Positions 5,658 to 36,720 of a DNA stretch of 64,000 bases are shown here, piece by piece (the first letter of the stretch is position 1; every line of letters starts with the position of its first letter). Origin of the DNA: a virus. The position numbers and the translations under genes were made by a program. The stretch is taken from IMG/VR virus record IMGVR_UViG_3300003154_000789, positions 61,331 through 125,330 of that record. One strand, written 5' to 3'. The notes below the pieces were generated by a model, which was not told the DNA's origin, ran no database searches, and saw only the letters and a program-made list of their open reading frames with translations.

Positions 5658-5669
5658 ATGTTATTTCCT

Positions 5670-6358: not shown

Positions 6359-6362
6359 ATTG

Positions 6363-6617: not shown

Positions 6618-6645
6618 CTGATAACTCCTTTATTTAATTGACTTG

Positions 6646-6720: not shown

Positions 6721-6727
6721 TTTGTGC

Positions 6728-6868: not shown

Positions 6869-6870
6869 TT

Positions 6871-6942: not shown

Positions 6943-6948
6943 ATAAAA

Positions 6949-11133: not shown

Positions 11134-11161
11134 TTTATTTTTTATCTCCTTTACAGATTTA

Positions 11162-11491: not shown

Positions 11492-12385
11492 TCATAGCGT
11501 ACCCTCTTCCATCATGGAAAGAATCCTTTTCTTGAGAGCAGTTAGTTTTCCGGATACCCAACTTTTAGATTTTCCGAAAGTTGCACCAATTTCATCAAAG
11601 GATTTATCAAGCATAATCCCTTCACAAATTAAAAGTTCTTGTTCTGTCATGTATTCTTTCAGTTTTTCAACTATACAAGCAGCTTCAAGAGTTTCGGAAT
11701 TTCTTTTATGAATCTCATTTGGAACTTGTTCTACATATTCGGTATCGGTTGGTATTACCTCTATTCTTTCCACAAACTTTTCATAAGCGACCCCAGCTCT
11801 TTTCGCCGCCAAAGAAATATTCTTCGCTAAATCCAAGCACTTTTCAATGTCGCTTGAAAATATACCGCAACTTGAATACACTTCCTCAGATGTGGTTTTC
11901 TCAACGATGACGATTTTCCAATCGATATTGAGTTTCTCGCAAATCATTTTTATCTTTTTTAAATTAGAATTTGCCTTTTTGATGTAAACGGGCACAGAAA
12001 TTATTGCCGAATTGCTTCTAACGAACTCATTCAAAGTGTCGCGTATTACAAATTTAGCATATGCTTCAAAATTATCACTTCGAGTTGGATCCCAATCTCG
12101 ATATGCACGTGCTAAACCTATAAGTGATTCACCAAAAAGATCAGATTTACTCATACCGGTGGATATCGAATACGAGTATGATAGATTATTGAGTATTTTT
12201 TCAAAACGGTTATAGATGTTTTCTGCTTCTACCGGAGTGTCAGCAAGGAAATATGCTGGCATCTCTTCAGTTTTCTTTAATACTGTTTGAGTTATAACAT
12301 CAAATTTATATCCACCTTTGTTTTTGTAGCGTCCATCATCATCATTTCCATCCCAATTTATTGGTTTGTCTTTAAATGGTGTCAT
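11492..12385 (-). CDS. sigma-70-family RNA polymerase sigma factor
   Basis: Region 2 DLFGESLIGLARAYRDWDPTR..NFEAYAKFVIRDTLNEFVR; region 4 HTH SFDEIGATFGKSKSWVS; start uncertain (12385-12445). Confidence 0.85.
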   Translation of the reverse strand: MTPFKDKPINWDGNDDDGRYKNKGGYKFDVITQTVLKKTEEMPAYFLADTPVEAENIYNRFEKILNNLSYSYSISTGMSKSDLFGESLIGLARAYRDWDPTRSDNFEAYAKFVIRDTLNEFVRSNSAIISVPVYIKKANSNLKKIKMICEKLNIDWKIVIVEKTTSEEVYSSCGIFSSDIEKCLDLAKNISLAAKRAGVAYEKFVERIEVIPTDTEYVEQVPNEIHKRNSETLEAACIVEKLKEYMTEQELLICEGIMLDKSFDEIGATFGKSKSWVSGKLTALKKRILSMMEEGTL

Positions 12386-12386
12386 A

Positions 12387-13367
12387 TCATGCTCTCTCGT
12401 AATTAAAGTCAATTTCCTTTTTGATAAAACGAGTGGTTTTGCCATTGACTTTCAAGTATTGAACTCCTTTATCCGTTATAATGCGACCCTTACCACTAAT
12501 AACAATCAATCCTTTTCTGATTAGGTAAGGTTCAGCAAAATCTCGAATACTTTTACTGTCTTCCTGTAATATAATGGATAGATTATCTAATCCAACAGGA
12601 ATTCCAGTTTCGAACAGCGTCTTTAATATTCTCAATTCTAGCGTGGTAAAACCTTCTTCATCAACACCAAGTTCTTCAAAAGCCTCTTGGATTATTGGAG
12701 CAGTGGCTATTATCGCTTTTATTGAAAGCATTTTGTCACGTATTCTTTCTACAAAACCGACGGCTATTCTGGGTGTTCCCCTGCTACGTTTCGCTATTTC
12801 AAGCACTCCGGCTGGAGTGATTTTAATTTTTAATCGTGCAGCATGATAACTTACAATGTTCTCCATTTCTGGTAATTCATAAGGCTGAAAATTAAATACC
12901 AATTTGAATCTATCCCTGAATGGTTTCGATAACTTTCCAGCTAAAGTAGTTGCTCCTACCAAAGTAAAGAAAGGTACCCAGAAATATTTATTGGGTTTAT
13001 TGGCTTCAATCATGAAACGTTCCATAACTAAACCCAAGGGCTCCTGTCCTTTTATATTCAGATTATGAATTTCATCGATGAATAGAATGGTTGGTCTTAT
13101 TTTTCCGATACGATTTCCCATGTCATCATAGTTTTCATGATTAAGTTGATCTAGAACATTGAGTACATGTTCATGATCTTTAAGCTCATCTGGTACAACC
13201 GATAGAAATGGGGCTTTTGTTATTTCGGCTATATAGCGAGCCATCGTTGTTTTTCCACAACCGGCAGCACCAGAGAAAAGCATATGAGGTATTGCCATAT
13301 TACGTATGTTAGCCGCTTTGATGGATACCTCTAACTGTTTTTTAGTATTCTCATGCCCAATTACCAT
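12387..13367 (-). CDS. ruvB: Holliday junction branch migration ATPase RuvB
   Basis: GAAGCGKTT Walker A, LFIDEIH Walker B, LVGATT, PFRDRF, RGTPRIA, EPYLIRKGLI. Confidence 0.92.
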   Translation of the reverse strand: MVIGHENTKKQLEVSIKAANIRNMAIPHMLFSGAAGCGKTTMARYIAEITKAPFLSVVPDELKDHEHVLNVLDQLNHENYDDMGNRIGKIRPTILFIDEIHNLNIKGQEPLGLVMERFMIEANKPNKYFWVPFFTLVGATTLAGKLSKPFRDRFKLVFNFQPYELPEMENIVSYHAARLKIKITPAGVLEIAKRSRGTPRIAVGFVERIRDKMLSIKAIIATAPIIQEAFEELGVDEEGFTTLELRILKTLFETGIPVGLDNLSIILQEDSKSIRDFAEPYLIRKGLIVISGKGRIITDKGVQYLKVNGKTTRFIKKEIDFNYERA

Positions 13368-15648: not shown

Positions 15649-15672
15649 TTTAAATATTTCTCCTTTAAGGGT

Positions 15673-16968: not shown

Positions 16969-16979
16969 TTATGTACCTC

Positions 16980-19049: not shown

Positions 19050-19082
19050 ATTTCCTCCTAGTTTTAAAAGATTATATGAAAT

Positions 19083-19865: not shown

Positions 19866-19886
19866 ACGATTCCTCCCAGAATCAAG

Positions 19887-20675: not shown

Positions 20676-20688
20676 CCGTGAGACCTCC

Positions 20689-22377
20689 TTATATCATAAT
20701 GGGTGATCCAATTCTGTTAGACCACACCAGTTTTCCGTCTTCACGATTCTTGTCTACAAATACTCGAATCGTATCTTCTATTACAGCGTTATCAACATCT
20801 ATTTCAAGATTAGGATCTTTACGCAAAATTTGACCGGTTACTTGAATCCATTCATCGAGGTCTTTGCATTCAGACACCTGGTTGAGTGTGACAATTTCAG
20901 ACAACGCAACATCCAATCGCCCCTCTTCGTTCATAATCACTTCGAGCGACGCTTCAATGTCTTCCCAACTTTGACCCTCACATCTTCGAAGGGCACAAGG
21001 ACGTTCGGCAAGTTTCTCCAGAACCTCATATGCCGGACCGATGTTTATCAATATGGATTTTAATTGCCGTACCAAATCAAGAGATTCCCCAATGAGAACA
21101 TCATAGTACTTGTGAAGTTCCCTGGTATCCGAAAATCTGTCACCATCTTGATAACCCTTCATATTGTTGAGAAGAGCACCTTTTATTTCCATGGTCTGTT
21201 CGAGCCACGCCTGATCTCCAATTTCGACAACGCCATAGCGGCTGATTTCGACGGCTTTGATTACAAGAGCATAATACATACAGGCAATTGCAGCAATAGC
21301 ACTTGGGCTCATAATTCCGTCAGCGGCTCTGAATTCAACGTGAAATCTTCGTATATCGCCGGAACTTGCGAACTCTATCTGATTATAGTTGATCCAGCCA
21401 TATTTATTGCCGCCAGAATTGGCAGAAACTTTTTCCTGTACTTCACGCATTTGATGCATGACTGCACTGACGGGAAGCACGCTCACTCTGAACTTTTCCC
21501 ACCGAGTCATCTGTTTTGGATTATCCAAACCCATCACCATCCAGGTCATAGCATTCTGATAACGCCTAACCAACTGATGAAGATTGGCAAGAATTATTTC
21601 TGGCATATCTCTTTCCATCTCATTGACTTTGTTGGGAATACCCATTTTCTCCTGACCTGGTACAACTTTTCCGTAATAACTCGCCAGAGCATGCATATGG
21701 GTACTACATCTTTCATTCAGATATGCTCCACGGTTACTTGCCAGAGTGATGATGTTCTTAGCCATCTTATAAAATTCCCAATAGTCCACACGTCTTCCAA
21801 CGGTGATGATCTCTGCACCCTTCTTACCAAGTAAAGAGCCATCAGTTGTGATGCTATGGACGCCGGTAGAACTCACCTGACCATAGGAATTATTCGGTTT
21901 CAGCTCGTTTTGCAACTGCAATCTGATGCTGTCAGGATTTTTATCCGGATCATATCTATATTTGCAGTTCTTACAGTCGGTCTGGAAATCACTGCATACA
22001 TAACAAAAGCTGATGAAATTGGGGCAATAGATGCCAGTACATTTTGGGGTAAAGAATTTGCAGGCTGCACAATCTGCATCCTCGCACGTATTTGTGGATT
22101 TTTCGCAGAATTCAACTGCACGAACGATGGCTTTACAACCACTTTTATTTATACACTGTTGCCAGCACGCATTGGCGGCAGACAAATTTATACAGGGACA
22201 AGTGCTACTGTCTCCTTTACAAGAACCATTCTTCTTTTCCGGAAGATTATATTCAAACTCCATCCCTATTTTCATAATCTTCTTAAGCGTGTTTTTCCAA
22301 TACGCAACGTCTTCTGCCGACAAGTCGGGCCTGGAAGGAAGGTTATAAAACGACCATTTGTGCTTGCTGTTTTTCAT
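20689..22377 (-). CDS. putative amidoligase (COOH-NH2 ligase fold) with Cys-rich insert
   Basis: IGMEFE, DGSL...AEI, CSTHMH, KY..IN, VEFR; 16 Cys inserted after the first Glu motif. Confidence 0.78.
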   Translation of the reverse strand: MKNSKHKWSFYNLPSRPDLSAEDVAYWKNTLKKIMKIGMEFEYNLPEKKNGSCKGDSSTCPCINLSAANACWQQCINKSGCKAIVRAVEFCEKSTNTCEDADCAACKFFTPKCTGIYCPNFISFCYVCSDFQTDCKNCKYRYDPDKNPDSIRLQLQNELKPNNSYGQVSSTGVHSITTDGSLLGKKGAEIITVGRRVDYWEFYKMAKNIITLASNRGAYLNERCSTHMHALASYYGKVVPGQEKMGIPNKVNEMERDMPEIILANLHQLVRRYQNAMTWMVMGLDNPKQMTRWEKFRVSVLPVSAVMHQMREVQEKVSANSGGNKYGWINYNQIEFASSGDIRRFHVEFRAADGIMSPSAIAAIACMYYALVIKAVEISRYGVVEIGDQAWLEQTMEIKGALLNNMKGYQDGDRFSDTRELHKYYDVLIGESLDLVRQLKSILINIGPAYEVLEKLAERPCALRRCEGQSWEDIEASLEVIMNEEGRLDVALSEIVTLNQVSECKDLDEWIQVTGQILRKDPNLEIDVDNAVIEDTIRVFVDKNREDGKLVWSNRIGSPIMI

Positions 22378-23530
22378 TGTAAAAATCTCCCCAGTTTTGT
22401 TCTATATTGTTTCCGAATTGAACATCTTTTTCAATGCATTCAAAATATGATTCGACGGCTTCAGCCCTCTGTGCGTAACCGACCATTTGTCGCACATCAC
22501 TTTTTATTGTTCGAAAATGATTTCTTGCTGCAGTTATATCAGGATTACATATAATCCCATAAAATGTATGGATATCAGGTAGATTTGGATATAGTGCTCT
22601 TAGATCCATCTCGGATAATATCCCATTTAAGTCCATGAAATTATCTGTGCATGTATTTATTCTGCTGGCTACATCTTCTGCAACAACAGCTCCGAGTGCT
22701 AATAGCCCTCTTGTAAGCAATGGATGCTTGAGATTGATTCCGCCTGGCATTCTGAATTCGAAAGTTCGATTATCCAAACGATATCCACCAGGTTTTCCAT
22801 ATTCCACAAATTTGGTGGTACGTCTAGCTATATCGGTATTTCCTTCTGGAATTATAGAGGGAACACCAACATAGTAATCAAAAGCAGTGGTCATAAGTTT
22901 TGCTACAGTGTTTACGTTGGGTCGCTGACCAAGAAGTCCTTTTGGCATGCCATAATGTAAATGGAATCCGGCGGTAAGTCCATTCCAAGAAGAACCAGCA
23001 ACCATAGCAATCCTATTTCCCTCGGAGAAGGCATTTAACATATGTCTAGCTTTCTTAACAAGATACCATAGGTTATTGCATACTTCTTCTGCGTACAGAC
23101 TAGGATTTGGTCTGAATTCTAAAAGCATCCCGTCATGCCCTACATCACCATATTTTTTCATAAATCTGTGGGCAGCTACCACATTCCCAGTCATCTTATC
23201 AATTATAAATAATTCAGGGTCGCACCCCAAAGTAATGTTTGTGACTCTTGAAACCTCACCAAGTGAGCGGTCCTTTATGCATAGCTCATGATCTACTTCC
23301 GTGGTAACATAAGCACAGTACTGGTCTCTGTTAACATCCTCTTTGAAAGCTTCTGCAATCTGAAACATTTTTAGACCGTTGGTCTTTGTTCGAAGGTATA
23401 GAAAATCTCCAATGTTTAAATTGTTCTTTTCTCGATAAGCCTGAGGAATTCTGACTATTCGATGCTCATACTTATCATTCCAGTCGGTTTCCTTATCCAT
23501 AGTGGGTGATATGTTTATATTTAATTCCAT
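22343..23530 (-). CDS. phiEco32-like COOH-NH2 ligase #2 with N-terminal accessory domain
   Basis: LGCDPELF, GHDG..LEFRP, AGFHLHYG, YGKPGGYR, FEFR; start MELNIN with RBS AAGGAG. Confidence 0.85.
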   Translation of the reverse strand: MELNINISPTMDKETDWNDKYEHRIVRIPQAYREKNNLNIGDFLYLRTKTNGLKMFQIAEAFKEDVNRDQYCAYVTTEVDHELCIKDRSLGEVSRVTNITLGCDPELFIIDKMTGNVVAAHRFMKKYGDVGHDGMLLEFRPNPSLYAEEVCNNLWYLVKKARHMLNAFSEGNRIAMVAGSSWNGLTAGFHLHYGMPKGLLGQRPNVNTVAKLMTTAFDYYVGVPSIIPEGNTDIARRTTKFVEYGKPGGYRLDNRTFEFRMPGGINLKHPLLTRGLLALGAVVAEDVASRINTCTDNFMDLNGILSEMDLRALYPNLPDIHTFYGIICNPDITAARNHFRTIKSDVRQMVGYAQRAEAVESYFECIEKDVQFGNNIEQNWGDFYNEKQQAQMVVL

Positions 23531-23543
23531 ATTTCTCCTTAAA

Positions 23544-24944
23544 TTAGTGTGCTTCGACAACTACTCCAAGTCTCATGTAGGTACGATATCTACAAGATTT
23601 ACTCTTGTTATAGTATTGATTTTTTACAACGCCGATATCTTCATCAACATAATCATATACTATAGCATCCTTTTTACCTGGAAAGGAACGCTGTATCCTT
23701 CCTATCAACTGCTCTGCCTTAGCCTCTGCTCTAAATGGCATGGATATGAATGCACGATCGAGAAATGGTACATCGAAACCTTCACCAAGTAAGGAAAAAG
23801 TAGCTATGAGAACAGTTATCCTGCCATCATTAAATGCTGCCACCTGTTCTTGAACATATTTTTTACTGTATTTTCCGGTTGCAATCCCTGTTTTTTCCCA
23901 TCCGATAGATATTTGTTTATAAAGCATTTCACAATGCTCTCGTCTGTCACTTATTACTATACAAAAATGACCAGCTTTAGCTTCATGAAGTACATCTTCC
24001 ACAATTATAGATGTCCGTTTAGGATTGTGCACAATGCATTTGTCAAGAATTGCTTGAATATCGTTTCCTTCCACAGCTTTGGAACGAATAGTCCTTTGCC
24101 ATACTACTGGCATTATAATTCCACCATATTTTTCCACATTTTTTATGGGAATAGTGGTTGTTGTTACACCAATTGTCTGAAACATCAGTTGTTCTAGATT
24201 GTCCCTCCTATATGGTGTAGCTGTGAGTCCGTACATATAGTAAGGATTTAAATGACAAAGAACATCTAAAAAAGTTCGGGCTGGACAATGGTGAGCTTCG
24301 TCTAAAACAACGAGTCCGAATGTCTCCCGTAGTTTTATCAACTCATCAGCATTTCGAACCAAAGTTTGTATCATCCCTATGGTAAGAACTTTACCGATAT
24401 TCCATTTTCCAGCCCCGATTGCTCCTATTTCTCCAATATCCGGTAAGAAAACTTTAGCCCTTTCTACCACCTGATCTGCAAGAGGTCCTGTGTGGGTAAG
24501 CCATAGAGTTGGCTGTCCTAATAATGGAATTATACTCAATCCCATGATTGTTTTCCCACTGCCAGCTGGAGCCACCAATACTCCTTCTGGAGCATCGGAT
24601 ATCATTTTTAGAACAGCATCAAATTGATATGGACGATACTTTATCATGGAGGAATCGATTTCGATATGATCAAATTTAGTACGTTTATCCGTCAATACAA
24701 AATCTATGCCAAATTCTTTTATTTTAAGCATTAGCCAGGATCTCAATCCTCTTGGTATTAGTAAACTATCATCCGGTAATACCATAAAGTTGACTATGAA
24801 AGGATCTACTCCCCACGTACTACGCCCAGAAGCTTGGGCTTCAGCATATTTAGGATTTGGTATACGAAGTTGTTCAACCAGAAGATGTTTTAGAATATCT
24901 GGTGGATTCTTAATCCTTATCCTGTTCTCGATAATTATCTCCAT
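23544..24944 (-). CDS. superfamily 2 DNA/RNA helicase
   Basis: APAGSGKT, DEAH, GLTATP, LGEGFDVP, QLIGRIQR. Confidence 0.92.
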   Translation of the reverse strand: MEIIIENRIRIKNPPDILKHLLVEQLRIPNPKYAEAQASGRSTWGVDPFIVNFMVLPDDSLLIPRGLRSWLMLKIKEFGIDFVLTDKRTKFDHIEIDSSMIKYRPYQFDAVLKMISDAPEGVLVAPAGSGKTIMGLSIIPLLGQPTLWLTHTGPLADQVVERAKVFLPDIGEIGAIGAGKWNIGKVLTIGMIQTLVRNADELIKLRETFGLVVLDEAHHCPARTFLDVLCHLNPYYMYGLTATPYRRDNLEQLMFQTIGVTTTTIPIKNVEKYGGIIMPVVWQRTIRSKAVEGNDIQAILDKCIVHNPKRTSIIVEDVLHEAKAGHFCIVISDRREHCEMLYKQISIGWEKTGIATGKYSKKYVQEQVAAFNDGRITVLIATFSLLGEGFDVPFLDRAFISMPFRAEAKAEQLIGRIQRSFPGKKDAIVYDYVDEDIGVVKNQYYNKSKSCRYRTYMRLGVVVEAH

Positions 24945-26414: not shown

Positions 26415-27371
26415 TTAAGATTCATCATAAAAATCTGGTTCTTCTCCAAAATCAATGTAACCGCTAGGAACTATTTCAGAACCTTCTTCCCCAACAGTCT
26501 CTATGGATTCAAAGGTTTTGCTTCTTTGTGGTGCTGGGACCAGATGTTCCTTTTTCCATTCACTGCTGGAAACATAGTATTTTTCTGCTGGGTGCCCTAT
26601 TTCATCCACTCTCCATAAGTCTTTAGCAGCTCTTTCCCAATCGACACTAGCAGCGTCAGAAAGTACAGGTTGATCTAACCATCTTCCAGCTTTAGGTTCA
26701 GCATTCTTTGGGGGTTTGGCTACCACATCCGGTTTATCAATCACCTTCTTTTTTGCCTTAGCTTTTTTTTCTTCGAACTCTTCCATATTTTCCAACAATA
26801 TAGAAGGAAGGACTACACAATGTCCTGATTTTCCAAGACCGTCAGCACTCCCTCCTCCCACATTTTCATTAAATTCCACGAAACATTGTCCCTGTCGATG
26901 ATTCTGGTACAACACTTTGCATTTCATCCCTTTGAGACTTCTCTTTTTGAAATAATAATCGGTGGTAACAATCTTATCACGATAAATCAAATCAAAGAAG
27001 TTGAAAAGTCCTTCAGCATCCTGCCATACTCCATGATATGAGTTAACAGCACCATCCAGACTTCCCCAGGATCTGTGTTTATTTTCACTGTAGAGGCCAA
27101 CATAAGAACGATCCTCTGTTTTTATTGCTTTGACCTCTACAATTTCATCACAAGGACAGATGCCACGTACTTCTGCATTTTTGTTAGCCCGCAGTTTGTT
27201 CCCGAGGTGTATCGTTGTCTCCCCTATAGTAATGGATTTTTGCAAAGCCGTAACCTCCTTCCGAAGAATGCGTAGGTGTTGGTGAAATATTTTCCGCACC
27301 ATCGCACGATTTATCGAACATTTTATCAATAAGCTCGCATAAGGAACCACAAGCTCCACGAAGTTTTTCAT
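26415..27371 (-). CDS. hypothetical protein (true start probably further downstream)
   Basis: Long ORF overlapping the RNAP C-terminus; GGAGG followed by TTG near 27243 is a plausible start. Confidence 0.6.
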   Translation of the reverse strand: MKNFVELVVPYASLLIKCSINRAMVRKIFHQHLRILRKEVTALQKSITIGETTIHLGNKLRANKNAEVRGICPCDEIVEVKAIKTEDRSYVGLYSENKHRSWGSLDGAVNSYHGVWQDAEGLFNFFDLIYRDKIVTTDYYFKKRSLKGMKCKVLYQNHRQGQCFVEFNENVGGGSADGLGKSGHCVVLPSILLENMEEFEEKKAKAKKKVIDKPDVVAKPPKNAEPKAGRWLDQPVLSDAASVDWERAAKDLWRVDEIGHPAEKYYVSSSEWKKEHLVPAPQRSKTFESIETVGEEGSEIVPSGYIDFGEEPDFYDES

Positions 27372-30300
27372 TTCTGATCAGTTGCATCTGCTCTCCTTCC
27401 GACATCTTTTCAAGGACCGTGTGAGAACGCTCTGCTTTACCAGACATAACCCATTTATACATACGACTGGGGATATCGGTAGCTGGGGCTTCAAGGGCTT
27501 TCAACAGAGCTATACCCTCAAGTTGTGAACGGCTTGCAAAATAAATACGATTTTGAGCACGAACAATGGTGCTTATCAGGTTACTTCCACCAGCTTCTTT
27601 CATTTTCTCATGGTATACCACCAGGTCGAAAATTCCAAGACCATTGGCACGATTGATGATCAGTGCACACAGCTTTTCTGTGGTACCACGCTTAAAGCCT
27701 ACTTCCACCAGCATTTCTACATTTGCAGTACAGACGCCTTCAATCACTATTTCGTATAGAGACTTTCCGCCATGTTTCTGTTCAAACACTGACTGAGCAG
27801 CCTTTTCAAGAAACATTTCTATTGCCACCTTCATTTTCTGGTCTTTGGCAAGTTCGGAATTCTCTACAATTCTCATGATATTGTACGTCAAAGCAATTAC
27901 TGGTCCAGTCTGAGCTTTTACCCCAGTGTTCTTTTCCACGATGGAGGCGTGCTCTTTGCAGGTCAAGATGTTAAATGGCTTTATGTTGAAGTCTGACAAA
28001 CCAAATTCCTTTATATGGGGAGCTCCTTTTCGCTCATTGAGTTTCTGGATTTCCGAATAACAGGTTGTGTTTGGATTCGTCCATTCTTTAAGAAGAGCCA
28101 TTCTAGCTTCTGGAGTATGGAAAGCTGCCAGGTACAAAACATCGCCATCAAAATCGAGGTTTTGAGATACCAAGCTATTCCCACTTGCACGGATAACATA
28201 CTTACACATCGGATCGTCAGTAACCCTAACTTTCTGTGGACGAACAGACATGAATCCAAGACAGGGAAATCTCTCAGCCAAAACCACATCTCCATCATTG
28301 ACTTTGATAGAACGTGCCATATCCCGGTGTATTTCCACAGTATTCTTGGGAATGGTGGTACTTAAACAGGCAACAGCCTTAACTGAGAATGGATATCTAA
28401 CTGACATTGCATATGTAGCTATTTCTCCATTCTTAGTACCCATCATCTTCGACAGTCTATCAAAATACGAATAGATAGAATTGTAATACAATCTATGATT
28501 AATGGGGTTATTTGGATCTGCAACCAATCTGTGGGACATAACCACCACGTTGTTTACCAATACACCGATTTCACTCAAGCCATATTTACCAGCATCGTGT
28601 CTCCAACACTTACGCAGTATACCATCTGGGAAATACAGATAATCGGTAGCATATGCTTCCTTTACTTTAGCCTTTTGCTCTGGCGAAAGTTGTTCATATA
28701 CAATCGGAGAACCCTCATGGAGAATCTCACCATCTTCATCGACCAGACTCTGATATTGTATGGGAAGCCTGAACAAAAATCCATCAGGATAGAAATACTC
28801 ATCTACCACTGTTCCACCGATGTACTGTCCAGAAACTATCGTTCCAGCAGCTTGATCAATCGGTCTTACCTGTTCCACTCCCAATACAGGACGTTTGGGA
28901 TACTCACCTATCTTGGAACGCAGCATTTCGAGCATTTGATGAATGTTTTCGGATCCCTGTGCATAGCTCATTATCTCGTCCAATATCGGATTGTCAACAC
29001 CAAAACGAGTTTCTATGGCACGGAACTCCACATGAGAGAATTTCAAGCCTGCTGTACGTACTTCTTTGCCATTTCTAGCAGTGGTAACTCCTGATTTCCA
29101 GATCTGATCTTCAGGAGTTTTTATACATCCCCAGAAGACTTTTCCACAGACAGCCTTGACTTTTCCAACGTAGGTATCACAGTCCCATGTACCATCTCTT
29201 CTGAACCCACGCTTTTCAAGCCCTGCTTCAACCTGGTCCATCGGCTGTGTCCAATCATCACTGATAATCAGGGGGGCATCTTGACTCGGATCGAAAACAC
29301 AGCTCGCAAGAGCTTCCATTATCTGCCCATAGTTACCTCTTTTTCCGGTAGTTTTTGCCCCCACAATAATATCTATTTTGCGTTTCTCTCCGGTACGCGG
29401 ATCAAAAGCATAACCAAGATCCATCATGCGAACAATACCTTTGTTTCCGTGAAGATTGGTAACCTTGAAACCATCACGAAAGAGTCTCCGATACGTGATT
29501 ATAACATTAAACACCTTGGTAGCAACGCCACCAATAGACATAACCGCTTCGGAGATTTTGCTTACCTTAGCTGAATCACAATAAGCCTCGAATATGATAG
29601 CTTCTTGATCTGGAGCTATTCCGATGACGTCGCCGGTTTTGATAGACTTACCTTCATCTACACGCAAGGATCCAAAGATTTGATAACGTCGGTCATATTC
29701 TACGAATTTGTTTGCATGAGATTTGTCGATCATTATCTGATCTTCAAATACATCCGGGATATCCACAAATGCTGTAAACAAATTCCAACCCTTACGAACG
29801 ATTCCAGTATCAGCCAAATCCTGCATGGATTGACTACGAATTGCGGGAAGTTCATCACCTTTCATTCCCAAAGTTGAATACAAATTACGTTGGGGATTGT
29901 GGTAACAAGATGCAAATGGAGATATCTTTCGCAGATCAATTTTCAGGATGTAATTCTTATCTGCTAATCCTCCATCGGCAAGCCCTATCGAAGTCCAACC
30001 CTTATCAAAATATTTCACCGATTTTGCCACCTGATAAGCAAGACGAGATTCAGGGGAACGCAGTTCATTGAAATCAGGATCGATTATTATCAACCGATTG
30101 TTCATTACGAAACTGTTCATAACGGTTTCATGCAGCGGCATTTTGTTTATAACCTCATTAATAGCTCGCTGAAGGCGATAAATTATAATAGAGGCATTGC
30201 CATTCTTGAAACCGTAAATTATTTGCTGAAGATAAGGGGTCGCTTTTATGAGTTCTTCAGAGACAAAACCACTCGGTACATCCATAATAATATAATACAT

Positions 30301-30603
30301 GGCTGACAAGTAGTCAAGTTCTCTTTGGTCTTTTTCCATCCAAAAAGAGCACACTGCTCGTGTCACTTCTTTCTGTTCAATCAAGGTGACACCATCCATG
30401 TCGAACGGTAATGGAATGGTGACGTTGTGTCTTTCAGTATCTTTGGCAAAGGATAACCAGAGTACATTGCTTTTGTCGATTGTAACATCTAAGGAGATTC
30501 CGTAATCAACTCCATGTTTACGACCTTCGGTTTCTGTTCTTGCTTTAAATTGAGTAACAATAGTATTTACCAGATGCTGGGCTCTTGCTAAATCAACTTT
30601 CAT
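27184..30603 (-). CDS. single-chain two-barrel (beta/beta-prime-like) DNA-directed RNA polymerase
   Basis: Beta-like KVTNLHGNKGIV, DIIV...KRGNYGQIME, GLKFSHVE; beta-prime-like GTKNG...MSVRYPFS, ERFPCL, NLDFDGD. Confidence 0.88.
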   Translation of the reverse strand: MKVDLARAQHLVNTIVTQFKARTETEGRKHGVDYGISLDVTIDKSNVLWLSFAKDTERHNVTIPLPFDMDGVTLIEQKEVTRAVCSFWMEKDQRELDYLSAMYYIIMDVPSGFVSEELIKATPYLQQIIYGFKNGNASIIIYRLQRAINEVINKMPLHETVMNSFVMNNRLIIIDPDFNELRSPESRLAYQVAKSVKYFDKGWTSIGLADGGLADKNYILKIDLRKISPFASCYHNPQRNLYSTLGMKGDELPAIRSQSMQDLADTGIVRKGWNLFTAFVDIPDVFEDQIMIDKSHANKFVEYDRRYQIFGSLRVDEGKSIKTGDVIGIAPDQEAIIFEAYCDSAKVSKISEAVMSIGGVATKVFNVIITYRRLFRDGFKVTNLHGNKGIVRMMDLGYAFDPRTGEKRKIDIIVGAKTTGKRGNYGQIMEALASCVFDPSQDAPLIISDDWTQPMDQVEAGLEKRGFRRDGTWDCDTYVGKVKAVCGKVFWGCIKTPEDQIWKSGVTTARNGKEVRTAGLKFSHVEFRAIETRFGVDNPILDEIMSYAQGSENIHQMLEMLRSKIGEYPKRPVLGVEQVRPIDQAAGTIVSGQYIGGTVVDEYFYPDGFLFRLPIQYQSLVDEDGEILHEGSPIVYEQLSPEQKAKVKEAYATDYLYFPDGILRKCWRHDAGKYGLSEIGVLVNNVVVMSHRLVADPNNPINHRLYYNSIYSYFDRLSKMMGTKNGEIATYAMSVRYPFSVKAVACLSTTIPKNTVEIHRDMARSIKVNDGDVVLAERFPCLGFMSVRPQKVRVTDDPMCKYVIRASGNSLVSQNLDFDGDVLYLAAFHTPEARMALLKEWTNPNTTCYSEIQKLNERKGAPHIKEFGLSDFNIKPFNILTCKEHASIVEKNTGVKAQTGPVIALTYNIMRIVENSELAKDQKMKVAIEMFLEKAAQSVFEQKHGGKSLYEIVIEGVCTANVEMLVEVGFKRGTTEKLCALIINRANGLGIFDLVVYHEKMKEAGGSNLISTIVRAQNRIYFASRSQLEGIALLKALEAPATDIPSRMYKWVMSGKAERSHTVLEKMSEGEQMQLIRNEKLRGACGSLCELIDKMFDKSCDGAENISPTPTHSSEGGYGFAKIHYYRGDNDTPREQTAG

Positions 30604-33344: not shown

Positions 33345-33794
33345 TCAAAATACCTCCTTGATGTGTAACTCACGCGAAATTGTGACAGCATTTGGGGTGT
33401 GCTTTGGAAGACAATTATATTCAGCGTAGACAGAATTGGTCATAATGTCTTTCAGAAGAGTACTCCAAGGCATCGCCATAAATTGATCGTTTGGTTTGGC
33501 TTGAAATGCTATCGCAGACTTCAATTTTGCGATGTATATGATGATGTTCTTATCTTCTATCCCCTTTGTTGGTGGATACCTTTTTATTTCGGCAAAATCA
33601 TCATTGTAGTTGAATGGATTTATTCCGAATAAGTTTAGAAGAATATCATTCACACAATCTAGAGGTGCTTCTGTAGCCTTGATGTAACGCTCAATGGTAA
33701 TGCACCACTGAGCGTTATTTGTCAGCTTATGAAGTAAGATTCGTTTATCCGGCAGCTGTACTGCCATATTCACACATCGCAAGCCGTTCATCAT
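33345..33794 (-). CDS. hypothetical protein (possible Nudix-like fold, no Nudix box)
   Basis: ILL.K...W.I.......EAPLDCV layout; catalytic REUxEE absent. Confidence 0.45.
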   Translation of the reverse strand: MMNGLRCVNMAVQLPDKRILLHKLTNNAQWCITIERYIKATEAPLDCVNDILLNLFGINPFNYNDDFAEIKRYPPTKGIEDKNIIIYIAKLKSAIAFQAKPNDQFMAMPWSTLLKDIMTNSVYAEYNCLPKHTPNAVTISRELHIKEVF

Positions 33795-34470
33795 TGTCTG
33801 TTCCCCTGGTATAAGCTGCAATGAATTCTTCCCATGGAAGTTCCAAAGCATCAATAATCATGTTTCTGTAATAATTAAAGCCTGCTGTGGTCTCAGCCAT
33901 AGCTTCAGGATGATATTGAACACCGAAAGCTTTTATTTTTGGGAAAATAACAGCTTCATTTTCTTTTCCGCGATAATCAACTTTCAGATCTGCATTGCCG
34001 ATGTACGATATCGAAAGGCTCTTTGCCGCCCAACCGATAACCTTTGCTCCTACGGGAGGAAGAATCATTTGATGATGATAACTGTTCACTATGAGTCTGT
34101 TACCAGCAGCCGTTTCCATAAGATGATCACGTCCAGCATGTCCGGTTACGTCATGCATCATACGTCCACCAGCCATAACGTTAAGGAACTGAACCCCTCT
34201 GCAGATGCCGGTCATCTTTATCCCATGTTCGAGGGCTTTCTCATAAATGGCAATTTCAAATTTATCTCTTTCCATAGAGTAGTGACAAATACCTTTTGGA
34301 CTTGTATCACCATAAAGCATCGGAGTAATATCTTCCCCACCAGTGAACAACACCAGTTTGAATTCACGTGGGTTTTCCAGAAATTCTCTTGATCTAACAG
34401 TCACATCCCCTAAACCTTCGACAGGACTTCTGTAACTGCTACCATTTAATACCAAAATCTTGTTGGGCAT
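33745..34470 (-). CDS. class I glutamine amidotransferase / peptidase C26 #1
   Basis: FTGGEDI, GICRG, NSYHHQ, GVQYHPE. Confidence 0.9.
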   Translation of the reverse strand: MPNKILVLNGSSYRSPVEGLGDVTVRSREFLENPREFKLVLFTGGEDITPMLYGDTSPKGICHYSMERDKFEIAIYEKALEHGIKMTGICRGVQFLNVMAGGRMMHDVTGHAGRDHLMETAAGNRLIVNSYHHQMILPPVGAKVIGWAAKSLSISYIGNADLKVDYRGKENEAVIFPKIKAFGVQYHPEAMAETTAGFNYYRNMIIDALELPWEEFIAAYTRGTDNDERLAMCEYGSTAAG

Positions 34471-34481
34471 TACTTTCTCCT

Positions 34482-34784
34482 TTATGCGGGCAGGTCGATA
34501 TTTGCTTCTGATTTGGCGGCGTCATCTTTCTTGCCTTTGGTAGGTTCATCTGGTAATATAGCCATGTCAAAGACTTCCGTCTCCGGGATCACTCGTACTT
34601 CAGGCGTGTCGATGAATTTGATGACATATGATGGACGTCTTCCTTTGGCTCCGGAACTGTAGCCATCACGACAATATAGAATTTCGGAAACAGTATGTCC
34701 GCCTTCAACTACGGGATCACCAACGCGGAAGATGATAGGAAGTGCCAGATTTCTTGCATCACGAACGATCTCTACGATTTTCAT
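34482..34784 (-). CDS. hypothetical protein
   Basis: ORF with RBS AGGAG. Confidence 0.6.
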   Translation of the reverse strand: MKIVEIVRDARNLALPIIFRVGDPVVEGGHTVSEILYCRDGYSSGAKGRRPSYVIKFIDTPEVRVIPETEVFDMAILPDEPTKGKKDDAAKSEANIDLPA

Positions 34785-34811
34785 GTATCTTATCTCCTTG
34801 ATAAATGTTTG

Positions 34812-35201
34812 TTATTTTGGCAAAGGCCAGCAGCCAGATTCAATCTTTTTTGCATGCTTTGGAACCTTGAAATTGAATACGTAGATATTTGCTTCCTTTA
34901 TTTCCCCGGCTTCGGTTTTGACTTGGACGCGTCTTCTCAAATACATACCATCCCTCAATTCGGGCTGATATCCTTCAATCATATCCATCGAGTGTGTAAC
35001 TTTCTCGGGATCTTTGTATTCATGAAGCTCACCCACAACTTTACCGGTTCCCGGTTTTATTCCAGGAAAAGAACCAAGATCAAATAGGTCGAATTTCTCG
35101 ACTTCAGCCTTTACGGAATTCAACCTGGCGGAATCAAATTGCTTTGCAAATCGTCCACCTACCTTAAGTGTACCATACACAAAGAACAAATCAGTTTTCA
35201 T
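34812..35201 (-). CDS. gamma-glutamylcyclotransferase (AIG2-like)
   Basis: FVYGTLK, FPG, V.GEL, D.IEG...Y.R. Confidence 0.92.
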   Translation of the reverse strand: MKTDLFFVYGTLKVGGRFAKQFDSARLNSVKAEVEKFDLFDLGSFPGIKPGTGKVVGELHEYKDPEKVTHSMDMIEGYQPELRDGMYLRRRVQVKTEAGEIKEANIYVFNFKVPKHAKKIESGCWPLPK

Positions 35202-35219
35202 TAGGTATTTCCTTTCATG

Positions 35220-36479
35220 TTAATATCGATATGCGGAACTCGATGTTGTTGAGATAGTATACATAGTGGTGCCCGTTGTGGTTCCCCAAGACGATGATAA
35301 ATTGCCCGCCGATCCATGTGTTGAGGTATCAACTGGAATAGCCATAGTTGCGTTACTGAAGGGATTTTCCAGCTTGGCTTCTAACTTTTTAAATGTTGGC
35401 TCAAAACGCTTGGGTTTGTTTCCTAAAGATTTTTTTTCATAATACTGTCGTAGTTTTCTTTCGATATCATGAGCCTGCCCGCTGTTGGCTGTTTCATAAT
35501 AGATATTACCAATTGGGGTCTGTTTTACTCTTAAATTTATACCTGATTTCGAAGCAAATAATTCAAGTAGACTAAGACATTCATTGATGTTTCCAGAAAA
35601 GAATGTTTCTATCTGATGTTTGGAGATCTCCTGCATATATCCGCCGGAAAATAAACTTTCCTTAGGGCCACCATGCATGAAATTATACTCTTTCAATTCT
35701 TCACTACGTGGAATGCCACTTTTTTTGTTTCTCAATTCTCTTAACCGTAGTTCTTTTTTCTTAGCCCTCTCCCTGGAGTCCTCAATTTCTTTTATCACTT
35801 TGTTTACGTTTATTGTGTTCTTCCAACCACGGGAAACCAATTTTTCAACGCGGGCTCCCAGAGCATCAAGGTATATAGTATCGGAACTTTTGTTTATACG
35901 AAGAACACCCTCCATACAATCCTGATATGCTCCTGGGACAGCTTCAAAGATACGCCCATCACAAAGCATTATCATGCCGCAACAGACAATGTCCACCATG
36001 CGTGCAACGTAGATAGCACTTTGCAAGGGGTCTCTGTCTTGATATTTGGATGTTATGAGTTGTACTACTTTTCCGCCCATAGTTACGAATGAGGAAATGG
36101 ATGACATCGGAGCAAACTTTTTAGCCATGTCACCAGAGTTTTTTATTTTCAATACTGGAGCTTTGGCTACCGGCTGTGCTACTTCATCTTCATCGTCTGA
36201 ATTTATGGAAAAGATTTCCATGGCGGAGGAATTAAATGGAATCCATTTTGGATTAGTCTGAAAAGCTTCAGAGATTTTATGGAAATCATCCTGAGGAACC
36301 GCAAAATCAAGATCGCCAACCAATTCCTTATTGGCTATGCAATCTCTAACGGCACCCCCATATATGATTGAATGCGGTGTCATAAATTCCAGAGCATTAT
36401 CAAACCGCTCCATGATGATTTCCTGTACCCATCCGACATCTTCTATCTCTTTCAAATATCCCGATATTTCAGGTTTCAT
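35220..36479 (-). CDS. second polymerase-beta-superfamily nucleotidyltransferase
   Basis: IYGGAVRD...DLDFAV motif A; divergent remainder. Confidence 0.65.
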   Translation of the reverse strand: MKPEISGYLKEIEDVGWVQEIIMERFDNALEFMTPHSIIYGGAVRDCIANKELVGDLDFAVPQDDFHKISEAFQTNPKWIPFNSSAMEIFSINSDDEDEVAQPVAKAPVLKIKNSGDMAKKFAPMSSISSFVTMGGKVVQLITSKYQDRDPLQSAIYVARMVDIVCCGMIMLCDGRIFEAVPGAYQDCMEGVLRINKSSDTIYLDALGARVEKLVSRGWKNTINVNKVIKEIEDSRERAKKKELRLRELRNKKSGIPRSEELKEYNFMHGGPKESLFSGGYMQEISKHQIETFFSGNINECLSLLELFASKSGINLRVKQTPIGNIYYETANSGQAHDIERKLRQYYEKKSLGNKPKRFEPTFKKLEAKLENPFSNATMAIPVDTSTHGSAGNLSSSWGTTTGTTMYTISTTSSSAYRY

Positions 36480-36712
36480 GCTATCGTTTTCTCCTGTATC
36501 TCAATGCATTTTATAGAGACAGTACTTGTGTCTGAAACAGCGTCTTCGAAAGCCATAGCTAACAACCAAGGGGTTATAGGCATCGACTTGATGTACGTTA
36601 TCGTAGAATCTCTTTCCTTCATTCTACGAAAATGTCGCACAATGTGCCGAAGCCTATAAACCACTTCAAGTATCGTGTCGTCCTCATATGTTATTTTTAC
36701 ATTAAATGCCAT
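36476..36712 (-). CDS. hypothetical protein
   Basis: Likely start MAFNVK at 36712. Confidence 0.5.
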   Translation of the reverse strand: MAFNVKITYEDDTILEVVYRLRHIVRHFRRMKERDSTITYIKSMPITPWLLAMAFEDAVSDTSTVSIKCIEIQEKTIA

Positions 36713-36720
36713 TACTTCTC

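What the first reader, a model, noticed from the sequence alone, without database searches (positions are those of the whole stretch)
27184..30603. Single-polypeptide RNA polymerase fusing beta C-terminal and beta-prime catalytic motifs
Seen, in order within 1139 aa: FKVTNLHGNKGIV (beta GDK..RHGNKG), DIIV...KRGNYGQIME (beta DI.LNP...SRMN.GQ..E), GLKFSHVE (beta GQRFGEME), GTKNG...MSVRYPFS (beta-prime GK.G...LGKRVDYS), ERFPCL (NRxPTL) and NLDFDGD (NADFDGD). Known: cellular and phiKZ/AR9 RNAPs distribute these motifs over separate subunits, whereas YonO- and crAss-type enzymes are single-chain. Inference: a compact single-chain two-barrel RNAP that keeps recognisable cellular-type motifs, possibly a distinct lineage.
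Basis: partly seen in the sequence, partly recalled or inferred. Interest (0 to 1): 0.8.

Follow-up and report, generated by a model that had tools for sequence, protein, structure and literature searches.

The report
Single-chain mini RNA polymerase, jumbo phage
One 1139-residue gene of an uncultured groundwater jumbo phage encodes cut-down versions of both catalytic subunits of cellular RNA polymerase joined in one chain, with every catalytic residue kept. It belongs to a large phage family that I found in no paper searched, and it always travels with its own sigma-like factor.

Summary
Window 27184-30603 (minus strand) is one 1139-aa ORF, and all six quoted motifs are present in the stated order.

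**What it is**
- AlphaFold models are confident: whole chain pLDDT 85, pTM 0.80.
- Residues 2-550 are a miniature but complete second-largest subunit (beta/Rpb2). About 500 residues align at Z about 21.
- Residues 562-1052 are a miniature largest subunit (beta-prime/Rpb1). About 410 residues align at Z 12.6-15.7, running from the N-terminus almost to the C-terminus of the targets.
- All eight universal two-barrel catalytic residues are invariant in 34 homologues.

**Which lineage**
- A flap (SBHM) insert, the extra Mg-B glutamate, the switch-2 lysine, the funnel arginine and a bridge helix place it with cellular-type polymerases.
- It does not group with YonO, crAss or QDE-1 enzymes.
- The closest described architecture is the yeast killer-plasmid polymerase (pGKL2 ORF6, Foldseek E 4e-23). 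The phage enzyme differs in keeping a clamp and the beta-prime C-terminus in the same chain.

**Context**
- The family has at least 373 members at 90% clustering, on contigs up to 330 kb. All that carry a name in the protein collection are called "hypothetical", though one UniProt member is auto-named "DNA-directed RNA polymerase".
- There was no match in GenBank phages.
- A clade-specific sigma-70-like gene co-occurs in 5 of 6 genomes checked.
- Related genomes also carry a giant protein (up to 7674 aa) with a second DFDGD module.

The same scan already met this family on other DNA. Verdict: a real, probably active enzyme and a new variant of a known kind.

The parts
27184..30603 (-). Gene for the 1139-aa single-chain two-barrel RNA polymerase (P0001)
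   Evidence: ORF list and translation; Pfam Rpb2_6 plus Rpb1_2; AF2 model pLDDT 85, pTM 0.80
30124..30600 (-). Residues 2-160: beta1/protrusion-like N-terminal domain. No separate match to the beta2 lobe was seen.
   Evidence: VIA matches to Thermus beta1 (3mlq_A, Z 7.8, residues 2-160) and Mtb beta B1/B2 (4kbj_A, Z 6.5, residues 4-152). Whole-half alignments start at about residue 40 of Rpb2.
29704..29931 (-). Residues 225-300: hybrid-binding region with NPQRNL (236-241, matching E. coli beta NMQRQA 684-689) and FEDQI (286-290, matching beta FEDSI 812-816, the Mg-B carboxylates E813/D814)
   Evidence: Local alignment to E. coli RpoB. N236, P237, R239, D288, Q289 and I290 are invariant; E287 is at least 90% conserved.
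29482..29703 (-). Residues 301-374: all-beta SBHM 'flap' insert in the beta-type barrel
   Evidence: VIA matches to the E. coli beta-flap (3tbi_B, Z 7.3), the Thermus beta-flap (3woe_A, Z 7.0) and NusG SBHM domain 2 (2xhc_A, Z 8.0). DSSP shows strands only and no tip helix.
29299..29481 (-). Residues 375-435: catalytic loop of the beta-type DPBB. K380 and K388 correspond to E. coli beta K1065 and K1073; R422 corresponds to beta R1106.
   Evidence: phmmer, hmmsearch and hhalign alignments to bacterial beta; local alignment; invariant columns
29026..29049 (-). Residues 519-526: GLKFSHVE, matching beta GQRFGEME 1267-1274
   Evidence: Local alignment. G519, L520, K521, S523 and E526 are invariant.
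28441..28920 (-). Residues 562-721: beta-prime N-terminal clamp core plus a two-helix hairpin (678-695 and 700-721) at the position of the clamp coiled-coil
   Evidence: VIA match to the archaeal clamp domain (3qqc_A, Z 8.7-9.0). Largest-subunit alignments start at target residues 13-21. Helices from DSSP.
28363..28440 (-). Residues 722-747: switch-2 motif. K724 and R736 correspond to E. coli beta-prime K334 and R346.
   Evidence: Local alignment. K724, G726, R736, Y737 and P738 are invariant.
28114..28362 (-). Residues 748-830: beta-prime-type DPBB with R778/P780 (NRxPTL) and the Mg-binding D817/D819/D821 (NLDFDGD)
   Evidence: Pfam Rpb1_2. VIA matches to isolated DPBB domains (7dww_A, Z 11.0, rmsd 1.9). 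Invariant columns.
27862..27960 (-). Residues 882-914: bridge helix (TGVKAQTGPVIALTYNIMRIVE)
   Evidence: A 33-residue helix in both models. Local alignment to beta-prime 785-802. T893, G894, V895, K896, T899, G900, P901, Y907, N908, R911 and E914 are invariant.
27724..27840 (-). Residues 922-960: shortened trigger-loop region (AAQSVFEQKHGG, compared with beta-prime [21 protein letters not shown])
   Evidence: Local alignment of AAQS (weak). Q942, K943, H944 and G945 are invariant. The assignment is inferred.
27187..27309 (-). Residues 1099-1139: disordered, poorly conserved C-terminal tail
   Evidence: pLDDT below 50 in both models; no consensus in A1
11492..12445 (-). Clade-specific sigma-70-family gene (297 aa from the start called by the source), a candidate specificity factor
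   Evidence: Pfam Sigma70_r2, E 4e-7. PHROG 351 sigma factor over residues 88-314. 78 homologues on the same contigs as the polymerase homologues. Present in 5 of 6 genomes.
23544..24944 (-). SF2 (ResIII/DEAD) helicase. It is a conserved downstream neighbour and a possible transcription-associated helicase (inference only).
   Evidence: Pfam. Same relative position in L007 and L009.

Best explanation
P0001 is a catalytically competent, DNA-dependent, single-chain RNA polymerase of the cellular (beta/beta-prime) type, made by an uncultured jumbo tailed phage.

The two barrels sit in one polypeptide in the order beta then beta-prime. The beta-type barrel supplies the two lysines (K380, K388) and the Mg-B carboxylates (E287, D288). 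The beta-prime-type barrel supplies R778 and the D817/D819/D821 triad. A bridge helix and a shortened trigger loop drive the nucleotide-addition cycle. A reduced clamp and a flap remain.

Inferred steps:
- The enzyme is made after infection and is not carried in the virion. It transcribes phage genes independently of the host polymerase.
- Related genomes carry a second, paralogous DFDGD module inside a giant protein, which is the likelier injected enzyme.
- Promoter choice is probably given by a separate factor. The best candidate is the clade-specific sigma-70-like protein encoded about 15 kb away.
For: **Shown**
- An intact 1139-aa ORF.
- Confident models of the whole chain and of the beta-prime half.
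- Residues 2-550 align about 500 residues to Rpb2/beta of eukaryotes, archaea, bacteria and ASFV at Z 20-22.
- The beta-prime half aligns 373-435 residues to full-length largest subunits at Z 12.6-15.7, spanning target residues from about 14 to about 1256 in Mtb beta-prime and 19 to 1704 in human A190.
- Foldseek on the beta-prime half returns bacterial beta-prime chains and AR9 nvRNAP beta-prime.
- All eight universal catalytic residues listed in PMC2919709 are invariant in 34 homologues. So are the switch-2 lysine and the funnel arginine, which that paper ties to DNA-dependent enzymes.
- The family is large and length-conserved: 373 hits of about 1100-1170 aa.
- In complete relatives it is the only Rpb2_6 hit.

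**Supporting the inferred steps**
- The sigma gene is present in 5 of 6 genomes at a conserved distance. Its homologues lie on the same contigs as the polymerase homologues.
- Giant ORFs of 7488, 7674, 4651 and more than 3325 aa carry VRFPFTG and KLDFDGD in 4 of 5 large relatives. They align to the mini-enzyme from DFDGD through the bridge helix to the KHxG motif (hhalign E 1.6e-4).
Against: - There is no biochemical evidence.
- Sequence similarity to cellular subunits is limited to motifs.
- The trigger-loop assignment rests on a 4-residue anchor plus invariant QKHG.
- The flap shows no tip helix, so canonical sigma region 4 docking is not evident. Phage sigma factors usually serve the host polymerase (PMC13282480).
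- The complex prediction gave no verdict.
- No conserved promoter motif was found.
- The giant DFDGD protein was not found in the window's own record, which is only 54% complete, nor in complete genome G004.
- Evidence of transcription is a single 230-nt contig in one RNA library.
Confidence: 0.72

Rival explanations
1. The enzyme is active, but the phage sigma-70-like factor works with the host RNA polymerase. This is the case for T4 gp55, SPO1 gp28 and the sigma factors of RNAP-less jumbo phages. The mini-polymerase would then recognise promoters by itself or with an unidentified neighbour protein.
For: The review PMC13282480 says jumbo-phage sigma homologues likely bind host RNAP. The flap lacks a tip helix. 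Complex prediction gave no support (no verdict). Five conserved small upstream genes and two downstream genes of unknown function sit next to the polymerase gene. phiKZ and AR9 nvRNAPs use non-sigma-like fifth subunits.
Against: The sigma family is restricted to this phage clade (78 hits, no cellular sigma at E 1e-5) and shares contigs with the polymerase family. A two-helix hairpin stands where sigma region 2 docks on beta-prime.
Confidence: 0.4
2. It is the virion-packaged early polymerase that is injected with the DNA, not a post-infection enzyme.
For: Many phage two-barrel RNAPs are virion enzymes: crAss gp66, P23-45 gp96 and phiKZ vRNAP. G004 (complete) and the window's own record show no giant DFDGD protein.
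Against: The gene lies among metabolic and nucleic-acid genes (amidoligases, helicase, sigma, RuvB), not structural genes. 4 of 5 large relatives have a separate giant DFDGD protein of the kind that is injected in crAss-like and P23-45-like phages.
Confidence: 0.12
3. It is an RNA-dependent or dual-template polymerase of the YonO/QDE-1/crAss lineage. In that case the cellular-type motifs would be convergent or ancestral remnants.
For: QDE-1 and RDR2 align across both halves (Z 12.7 and 12.3, about 455 residues). All known single-chain two-barrel enzymes share the beta-then-beta-prime order.
Against: Each half scores higher against cellular subunits (Z about 21 and up to 15.7) than against QDE-1, RDR2, gp62 or gp96 (9.3-10.5 on the beta-prime half). 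YonO is not among the top 30 Swiss-Prot models. It has the SBHM flap and the extra glutamate, which RdRPs and YonO lack. It also has Pfam Rpb2_6 and Rpb1_2 hits, which crAss and RdRP proteins do not give.
Confidence: 0.05
4. It is an inactive or repurposed polymerase-like protein, for example a structural or regulatory protein.
For: None specific, beyond the lack of direct activity data.
Against: All catalytic residues are invariant across 34 sequences down to 52% identity, and they are kept in members at 37-44% identity and in the split relatives.
Confidence: 0.04

Closest known systems
Yeast cytoplasmic linear-plasmid (VLE, 'killer plasmid') RNA polymerase K2ORF6p of pGKL2 (P05472), with small subunit K2ORF7p
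   Same: It is a single chain of about 1000 aa carrying a shortened Rpb2/beta followed by a shortened Rpb1/beta-prime. It has cellular-type motifs, a flap-type insert and no lid or rudder. It is the top hit among 550,129 Swiss-Prot models, covering both halves (E 4.2e-23, query 39-897 against hit 97-965). That is 10 orders of magnitude better than the next hit.
   Different: Identity is only 12%, TM is 0.38/0.43 and rmsd is 17 A. The VLE enzyme lacks almost the whole clamp and keeps the beta-prime C-terminal regions on a separate 132-aa subunit (PMC6211774). The phage enzyme aligns from residue about 14 of beta-prime, has a clamp core and helical hairpin, and carries the C-terminal regions in the same chain. 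The VLE enzyme works with a capping enzyme and has a proposed poxvirus-like origin. The phage enzyme travels with a sigma-70-like factor.
Split multisubunit RNAPs of phiKZ/AR9-type jumbo phages (nvRNAP, PDB 7OGP, 7S00/7S01)
   Same: These are phage-encoded cellular-type beta/beta-prime homologues without alpha or omega. The DPBB cores match well (7s00_C Z 18.6, rmsd 3.5; 7ogp_C Z 16.2; 7s00_d Z 11.7; Foldseek 7s01_d E 1.9e-9). There are weak PHROG hits to their beta subunits.
   Different: Those enzymes have four or five polypeptides, no sigma-70 homologue, and a phage-specific fifth subunit for promoter recognition. This enzyme is one chain of about half the total mass.
Single-chain YonO, crAss gp66, P23-45 gp64/gp96 and eukaryotic QDE-1/RDR polymerases
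   Same: They are one polypeptide with two DPBBs in the same order. In P23-45 there is a pairing of a giant virion-protein-embedded polymerase with a small non-virion one.
   Different: Structural scores are lower (QDE-1 12.7, gp62 10.0, gp96 9.0 on the whole chain; 9.3-10.5 on the beta-prime half). They have no flap insert and lack the extra Mg-B glutamate. They have no Pfam Rpb hits.
mReC phages (Weinheimer and Aylward 2020, PMC7481178)
   Same: They are uncultured, often jumbo, tailed phages with deep-branching cellular-type RNAP genes.
   Different: mReC were defined by separate beta and beta-prime genes of at least 800 aa each, scores of at least 80 to COG0085/COG0086, and an NADxDGD motif. 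This protein is fused, has halves of about 550 and 590 aa, has NLDFDGD, and scores 23-28 bits against Pfam.

Membership tests
Two-barrel (double-psi beta-barrel) RNA polymerase superfamily | Eight invariant catalytic residues: DxDxD triad, Rpb1 R446/P448, Rpb2 K979/K987, Rpb2 D837 (PMC2919709) | tested here: met
   D817/D819/D821, R778/P780, K380/K388 and D288 are all invariant in 34 homologues.
Two-barrel (double-psi beta-barrel) RNA polymerase superfamily | Two DPBB folds facing one active site | tested here: met
   Beta-type barrel within residues 222-502 (7s00_C Z 18.6, rmsd 3.5). Beta-prime-type barrel at residues 739-830 (7dww_A Z 8.9-11.0, rmsd 1.9). The mutual orientation is a prediction only.
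Cellular-type (beta/beta-prime) clade, including fused derivatives | SBHM 'flap' insert in the beta barrel, which is absent from RdRP and YonO-type enzymes (PMC7824862) | tested here: met
   Residues 301-374 match the beta-flap structures 3tbi_B (Z 7.3) and 3woe_A (Z 7.0), and the NusG SBHM (Z 8.0).
Cellular-type (beta/beta-prime) clade, including fused derivatives | Fifth carboxylate (Rpb2 E836), switch-2 lysine (Rpb1 K332) and funnel arginine (Rpb2 R1020) | tested here: met
   E287 (at least 90% conserved), K724 and R422 (both invariant) align to E. coli beta E813, beta-prime K334 and beta R1106.
Cellular-type (beta/beta-prime) clade, including fused derivatives | Bridge helix and trigger loop | tested here: inconclusive
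   The bridge helix is clear (helix 882-914, invariant motif). The trigger loop is inferred from AAQS plus invariant QKHG, and is about 9 residues shorter than in E. coli.
Cellular-type (beta/beta-prime) clade, including fused derivatives | Pfam RNA_pol_Rpb2_6 and RNA_pol_Rpb1_2 above gathering score | tested here: inconclusive
   Rpb2_6 scores 28.1 against a cutoff of 23.4, so it is met. Rpb1_2 scores 23.4 against 25.3, so it is not met for this protein. It is met in 4 of 5 related genomes and in many precomputed homologues.
Yeast VLE (killer-plasmid) ORF6-type RNAP | Rpb2::Rpb1 fusion in one chain of about 1000 aa | tested here: met
   Collinear Foldseek alignment, query 39-897 against P05472 97-965, E 4.2e-23.
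Yeast VLE (killer-plasmid) ORF6-type RNAP | Almost no clamp, and beta-prime C-terminal regions on a separate small subunit (K2ORF7p) | tested here: not met
   The beta-prime half aligns from target residue about 14 to about 1256 of Mtb beta-prime, and includes a clamp-domain match (3qqc_A, Z 9.0). For the VLE features see PMC6211774.
Yeast VLE (killer-plasmid) ORF6-type RNAP | Specific sequence kinship (ORF6 profile) | not testable with these tools
   No ORF6 sequence or profile could be handed to the comparison tools. Identity in the structural alignment is 12%.
YonO / crAss gp66 / QDE-1 clade | No flap insert, no Rpb2-E836 equivalent, and a QDE-1-type connector | tested here: not met
   The flap and E287 are present. 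YonO is absent from the top 30 Swiss-Prot hits. QDE-1 scores Z 9.3 on the beta-prime half, against 12.6-15.7 for cellular subunits.
mReC phage RNAP | Separate beta and beta-prime of at least 800 aa each, NADxDGD, and at least 80 bits to COG0085/COG0086 | tested here: not met
   This is one fused ORF with NLDFDGD and Pfam scores of 23-28 bits.
phiKZ/AR9-type split msRNAP | Beta and beta-prime each split into two or more polypeptides; no sigma homologue | tested here: not met
   It is a single chain. In complete relatives it is the only Rpb2_6 hit. A sigma-70-family gene is present.

The most novel reading that the evidence does not exclude
The 125-kDa chain plus the clade-specific 297-aa sigma-70-like protein form a complete two-polypeptide holoenzyme. 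This would be the smallest sigma-dependent cellular-type RNA polymerase. It would be one arm of a two-polymerase programme in which a paralogous module inside a roughly 7500-aa injected protein starts infection. If so, this phage lineage gives a minimal model for sigma-dependent initiation. It could also be a prokaryotic-virus source for the fused mini-polymerases of eukaryotic cytoplasmic plasmids and giant viruses.
Probability: 0.25. Interest if true: 0.85.

Novelty: new variant of a known kind. Interest (0 to 1): 0.62.

Why it matters
Cellular-type RNA polymerases are normally 400-kDa assemblies. A natural 125-kDa single chain that keeps the flap, a clamp, the bridge helix and all catalytic residues shows how far the machine can be trimmed. 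It would be an easy target for expression, structure determination and engineering.

It also changes how such jumbo phages are read. The 2026 review (PMC13282480) treats sigma-encoding jumbo phages as dependent on the host polymerase. This widespread environmental clade carries both a sigma factor and its own polymerase, and its relatives carry a second polymerase module in a giant protein.

The split relatives and the likeness to killer-plasmid enzymes bear on how fused and split two-barrel polymerases evolved.

Tried and rejected
- **Complex prediction.** Complex prediction of residues 280-900 with the phage sigma scored 0.00, no verdict. It is not evidence either way.
- **Sequence comparison to E. 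coli.** hhalign of the family profile against single E. coli RpoB found only the K1065 region (E 5e-5). Against RpoC it found nothing meaningful. Sequence alone cannot map the beta-prime half.
- **GenBank phages.** tblastn against 50,697 records gave no match, so no cultured relative is available. Records close to the window's genome may be hidden by the tool.
- **Promoter search.** Intergenic k-mer enrichment returned only tRNA and ribosome-binding-site words. Sigma-70-type promoter-like sites numbered 58 against 54.7 +/- 6.3 expected, and terminator-like sites 15 against 14.5. No signal.
- **Conserved neighbours.** The genes of 328, 263, 122, 178, 169 and up to 318 aa have no Pfam or PHROG family. 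The Atlas look-ups gave nothing usable. Whether any of them is an extra subunit is open.
- **Expression.** One 230-nt identical contig was found in a wastewater metatranscriptome, plus short contigs in two 'RNA?' libraries that may be DNA. Inconclusive.
- **mReC membership** was rejected on that paper's own criteria.
- **Published survey.** The survey table of PMC10770324 (Supplementary Data 4) covers GenBank viruses. In the first of its ten parts and in term searches of it, I found no entry for this clade.
- **P0229.** This 2278-aa protein has Rpb2_6 and Rpb1_2 hits but sits beside a TraG/TrwB coupling protein. It belongs to a different, mobile-element lineage.

Full report
**1. Observation.**
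The window's coordinates 27184-30603 hold one ATG-started ORF on the minus strand, 1139 aa long (P0001). Almost all genes of the window lie on that strand.

| String | Residues |
|---|---|
| FKVTNLHGNKGIV | 379-391 |
| DIIV ... KRGNYGQIME | 411-430 |
| GLKFSHVE | 519-526 |
| GTKNG ... MSVRYPFS | 722-740 |
| ERFPCL | 777-782 |
| NLDFDGD | 815-821 |

Pfam gives RNA_pol_Rpb2_6 on residues 253-472 (E 1.5e-6, above the cutoff). It gives RNA_pol_Rpb1_2 on residues 756-834 (E 7.8e-5, just below the cutoff). PHROGs gives two weak hits to 'RNA polymerase beta subunit' families. The PDB sequence search finds only the K1065 region of bacterial beta.

**2. Genomic setting.**
The window is part of a 141.5-kb IMG/VR virus record that is 54% complete. 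A 247-kb contig carrying the same protein is on record. Near-identical DNA occurs in groundwater and freshwater metagenomes from several studies.

The record encodes a baseplate wedge protein, DNA polymerase, clamp loader, ribonucleotide reductase and ligase. In the window it also encodes:
- five tRNAs and a CCA-adding enzyme;
- a RuvB-like ATPase and a YcaO protein;
- a large set of COOH-NH2 ligases, glutamine amidotransferases and gamma-glutamyl peptidases.

It is a large tailed phage. The gene order around the polymerase is kept in relatives at 54% and 69% identity. That order includes five small unknown genes upstream, two downstream, a DUF4357 protein and an SF2 helicase.

**3. The family.**
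The word-indexed search found 373 homologues. Of these, 120 are listed, at 51-84% identity, nearly all 1100-1170 aa long, on contigs up to 330 kb. Every one that carries a name is called 'hypothetical'. The exhaustive search of 50% cluster representatives found 113 clusters, about 25 of them full-length, down to 37% identity. GenBank phages hold no match. One metagenomic member in AlphaFold DB (A0A0F9QJZ1, 36% identity, TM 0.83/0.89) is auto-named 'DNA-directed RNA polymerase'. The family is therefore in public databases, but I found no paper that describes it.

The same scan had already met this family on other DNA (e1-4506503, e1-4597629, e1-5363431).

**4. Structure.**
With a 34-sequence alignment, AlphaFold2 gives pLDDT 85 and pTM 0.80. 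Only residues 1099-1139 are disordered.

*Beta half.* Residues 2-550 align about 500 residues to second-largest subunits of Pol I, II, III and IV, archaeal and bacterial RNAP, and ASFV. Z is 20-22, and the alignments run from about residue 40 to about residue 1110 of the targets. The half includes:
- a beta1/protrusion-like domain (2-160);
- an all-beta flap (301-374) that matches solved beta-flap domains;
- the catalytic barrel.

*Beta-prime half.* Folded alone (pLDDT 85), it aligns 373-435 residues to full-length largest subunits at Z 12.6-15.7, from their N-terminus almost to their C-terminus. Foldseek returns bacterial beta-prime chains and AR9 nvRNAP beta-prime. It contains:
- a clamp core;
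- a two-helix hairpin where the clamp coiled-coil stands;
- switch 2;
- the DFDGD barrel;
- a 33-residue bridge helix;
- a short trigger-loop-like segment.

The single-chain phage and RNAi enzymes score lower: gp96 10.5, gp62 9.7, RDR2 9.6 and QDE-1 9.3.

**5. Catalytic residues.**
Local alignments to E. coli RpoB and RpoC, together with the invariant columns of the family alignment, give these correspondences:

| P0001 | E. coli equivalent |
|---|---|
| N236 / R239 | beta N684 / R687 |
| E287 / D288 | beta E813 / D814 |
| K380 / K388 | beta K1065 / K1073 |
| R422 | beta R1106 |
| G519-E526 | beta 1267-1274 |
| K724 / R736 | beta-prime K334 / R346 |
| R778 / P780 | beta-prime R425 / P427 |
| D817 / D819 / D821 | beta-prime D460 / D462 / D464 |

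These include all eight residues that PMC2919709 lists as universal in two-barrel RNAPs. They also include the extra glutamate, the switch-2 lysine and the funnel arginine, which that paper ties to cellular-type, DNA-dependent enzymes. The conservation argues for an active enzyme.

**6. Which lineage.**
[quoted passage not shown] They place it outside the YonO/crAss/QDE-1 clade.
- *Killer-plasmid ORF6.* Among 550,129 Swiss-Prot models, the top hit by ten orders of magnitude is the pGKL2 ORF6 polymerase (E 4.2e-23, covering both halves). YonO is not in the top 30. This reproduces the lead from the earlier scan note. The likeness may owe much to the shared fused layout: identity is 12% and TM is about 0.4. 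The VLE enzyme lacks most of the clamp and keeps its beta-prime C-terminal regions on a second small subunit. The phage enzyme does neither. I therefore treat ORF6 as the closest described architecture, not as the same family.
- *mReC.* Membership is excluded by that study's own filters.

**7. Does it need other large subunits?**
In three complete relatives of 269-298 kb, plus one 86%-complete relative and the window's own record, Pfam Rpb2_6 finds only this gene. Rpb1_2 finds this gene plus, in three of the five relatives searched, a weak hit inside a giant open frame. Small accessory subunits among the conserved unknown neighbours cannot be excluded.

**8. Sigma factor.**
A 297-aa sigma-70-family protein is encoded at 11492-12445 on the minus strand. 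It has Pfam region 2, and PHROG 351 covers it through to the C-terminal helix-turn-helix. Its 78 homologues at E up to 1e-5 all come from metagenome contigs like those of this clade. Many lie on the very contigs that carry polymerase homologues. A sigma gene lies 15-18 kb from the polymerase gene in 5 of 6 genomes examined, including all three complete ones.

This fits a dedicated specificity factor, but it does not prove one:
- phage sigma factors usually redirect the host enzyme;
- the flap has no tip helix;
- the one complex prediction gave no verdict.

I put the partnership at about 40%.

**9. A second polymerase module.**
In four of five large relatives, a giant open frame (7488 aa, 7674 aa, 4651 aa, and more than 3325 aa at a contig end) carries 'ESVRFPFTG' and 'KLDFDGD' or 'KLDYDGD'. 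The beta-prime-half profile aligns to it over 134 columns, from DFDGD through the family-specific bridge-helix motif (K-x-[QH]-TGP ... Y ... R) to a KHxG motif (hhalign E 1.6e-4). This suggests a paralogue.

By analogy with crAss gp66 and the tape-measure-fused gp96 of P23-45, this is the likelier injected enzyme. That would make the 1139-aa protein the post-infection polymerase. The giant gene is not in the window's incomplete record, so for this phage the point is inferred.

**10. Split relatives.**
Two divergent contigs from different samples carry the mini-enzyme as two overlapping genes:
- a beta-like gene of 506 aa (P0206, 24% identity to P0001);
- a beta-prime-like gene of 537 aa (P0204, 25% identity to P0001).

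The break is near residue 500-526 of P0001. That is before the GQRFGEME-type motif, not at the canonical beta/beta-prime border.

**11. Verdict.**
It is most likely an active, cellular-type, single-chain RNA polymerase of an uncultured jumbo-phage clade. It is a new variant of a known kind (fused mini two-barrel RNAPs), undescribed in the literature I could search, and already noted by this scan on other genomes. Promoter recognition, timing of expression and partnership with the sigma factor remain inferences.

Noticed in passing
Related genomes: L032 (G002:187267-187359), L034 (G005:155558-155629), L033 (G001 contig end), G003:260486-260857: Giant open frames of 7488, 7674, more than 3325 and 4651 aa carry a second two-barrel catalytic module (VRFPFTG ... 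KLDFDGD/KLDYDGD). It aligns to the mini-polymerase through the bridge helix (hhalign E 1.6e-4). It is probably an injected virion polymerase. It was not found in complete genome G004 or in the window's 54%-complete record.
   Followed up: partly
L010:281-2169 and L011:1-2356: Divergent relatives carry the mini-polymerase as two overlapping genes: beta-like (506 aa) and beta-prime-like (537 aa). The break is before the GQRFGEME-type motif, not at the canonical subunit border.
   Followed up: partly
window 11492-12445 (-): A sigma-70-family gene whose 78 homologues all come from metagenome contigs like those of this clade. It is syntenic with the polymerase (15-18 kb away) in 5 of 6 genomes.
   Followed up: yes
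window 14542-23560 and 33745-38420 (-): A dense set of amidoligase and gamma-glutamyl genes: at least three COOH-NH2 ligases, an RimK/S6-glutaminyl-transferase-like protein, GATase/GlmS-like proteins and two Peptidase_C26 genes. Relatives also have GGACT. The set is conserved on both sides of the polymerase gene, which suggests a peptide or metabolite modification system.
   Followed up: no
window 50632-51996 (-): A YcaO cyclodehydratase-family gene (Pfam E 1.6e-50) in a phage genome.
   Followed up: no
window 708-6943 (-) and 9691-11244 (-): Five tRNA genes (Arg-tct, Leu-taa, Ile-tat, Pro-tgg, Met-cat) and a CCA-adding tRNA nucleotidyltransferase.
   Followed up: no
window 23544-24944 (-): An SF2 (ResIII/DEAD/Helicase_C) helicase held at the same place downstream of the polymerase in relatives. 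It recalls the helicases linked to VLE, poxvirus and phiKZ-type polymerases.
   Followed up: no
window 26415-27371 (-): The longest reading of the downstream ORF overlaps the last 188 bases of the polymerase gene. Relatives have a gene of 159-173 aa there, so the true start is probably further downstream.
   Followed up: no
L036:8001-14837: A 2278-aa protein (P0229) with Rpb2_6 and Rpb1_2 hits sits next to a TraG/TrwB coupling protein. This is another fused two-barrel polymerase lineage, on a conjugative-element-like contig.
   Followed up: partly
AlphaFold DB cluster A0A3D6D8Z9 (no locus): A 1262-aa protein named 'DNA-directed RNA polymerase' aligns over the whole chain (E 7e-26, 12% identity). 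It is a further, distant single-chain family.
   Followed up: no
window 29280-29509: A 230-nt contig identical to the gene occurs in a wastewater metatranscriptome library (run X20). This hints at transcription, but DNA carry-over is not excluded.
   Followed up: partly
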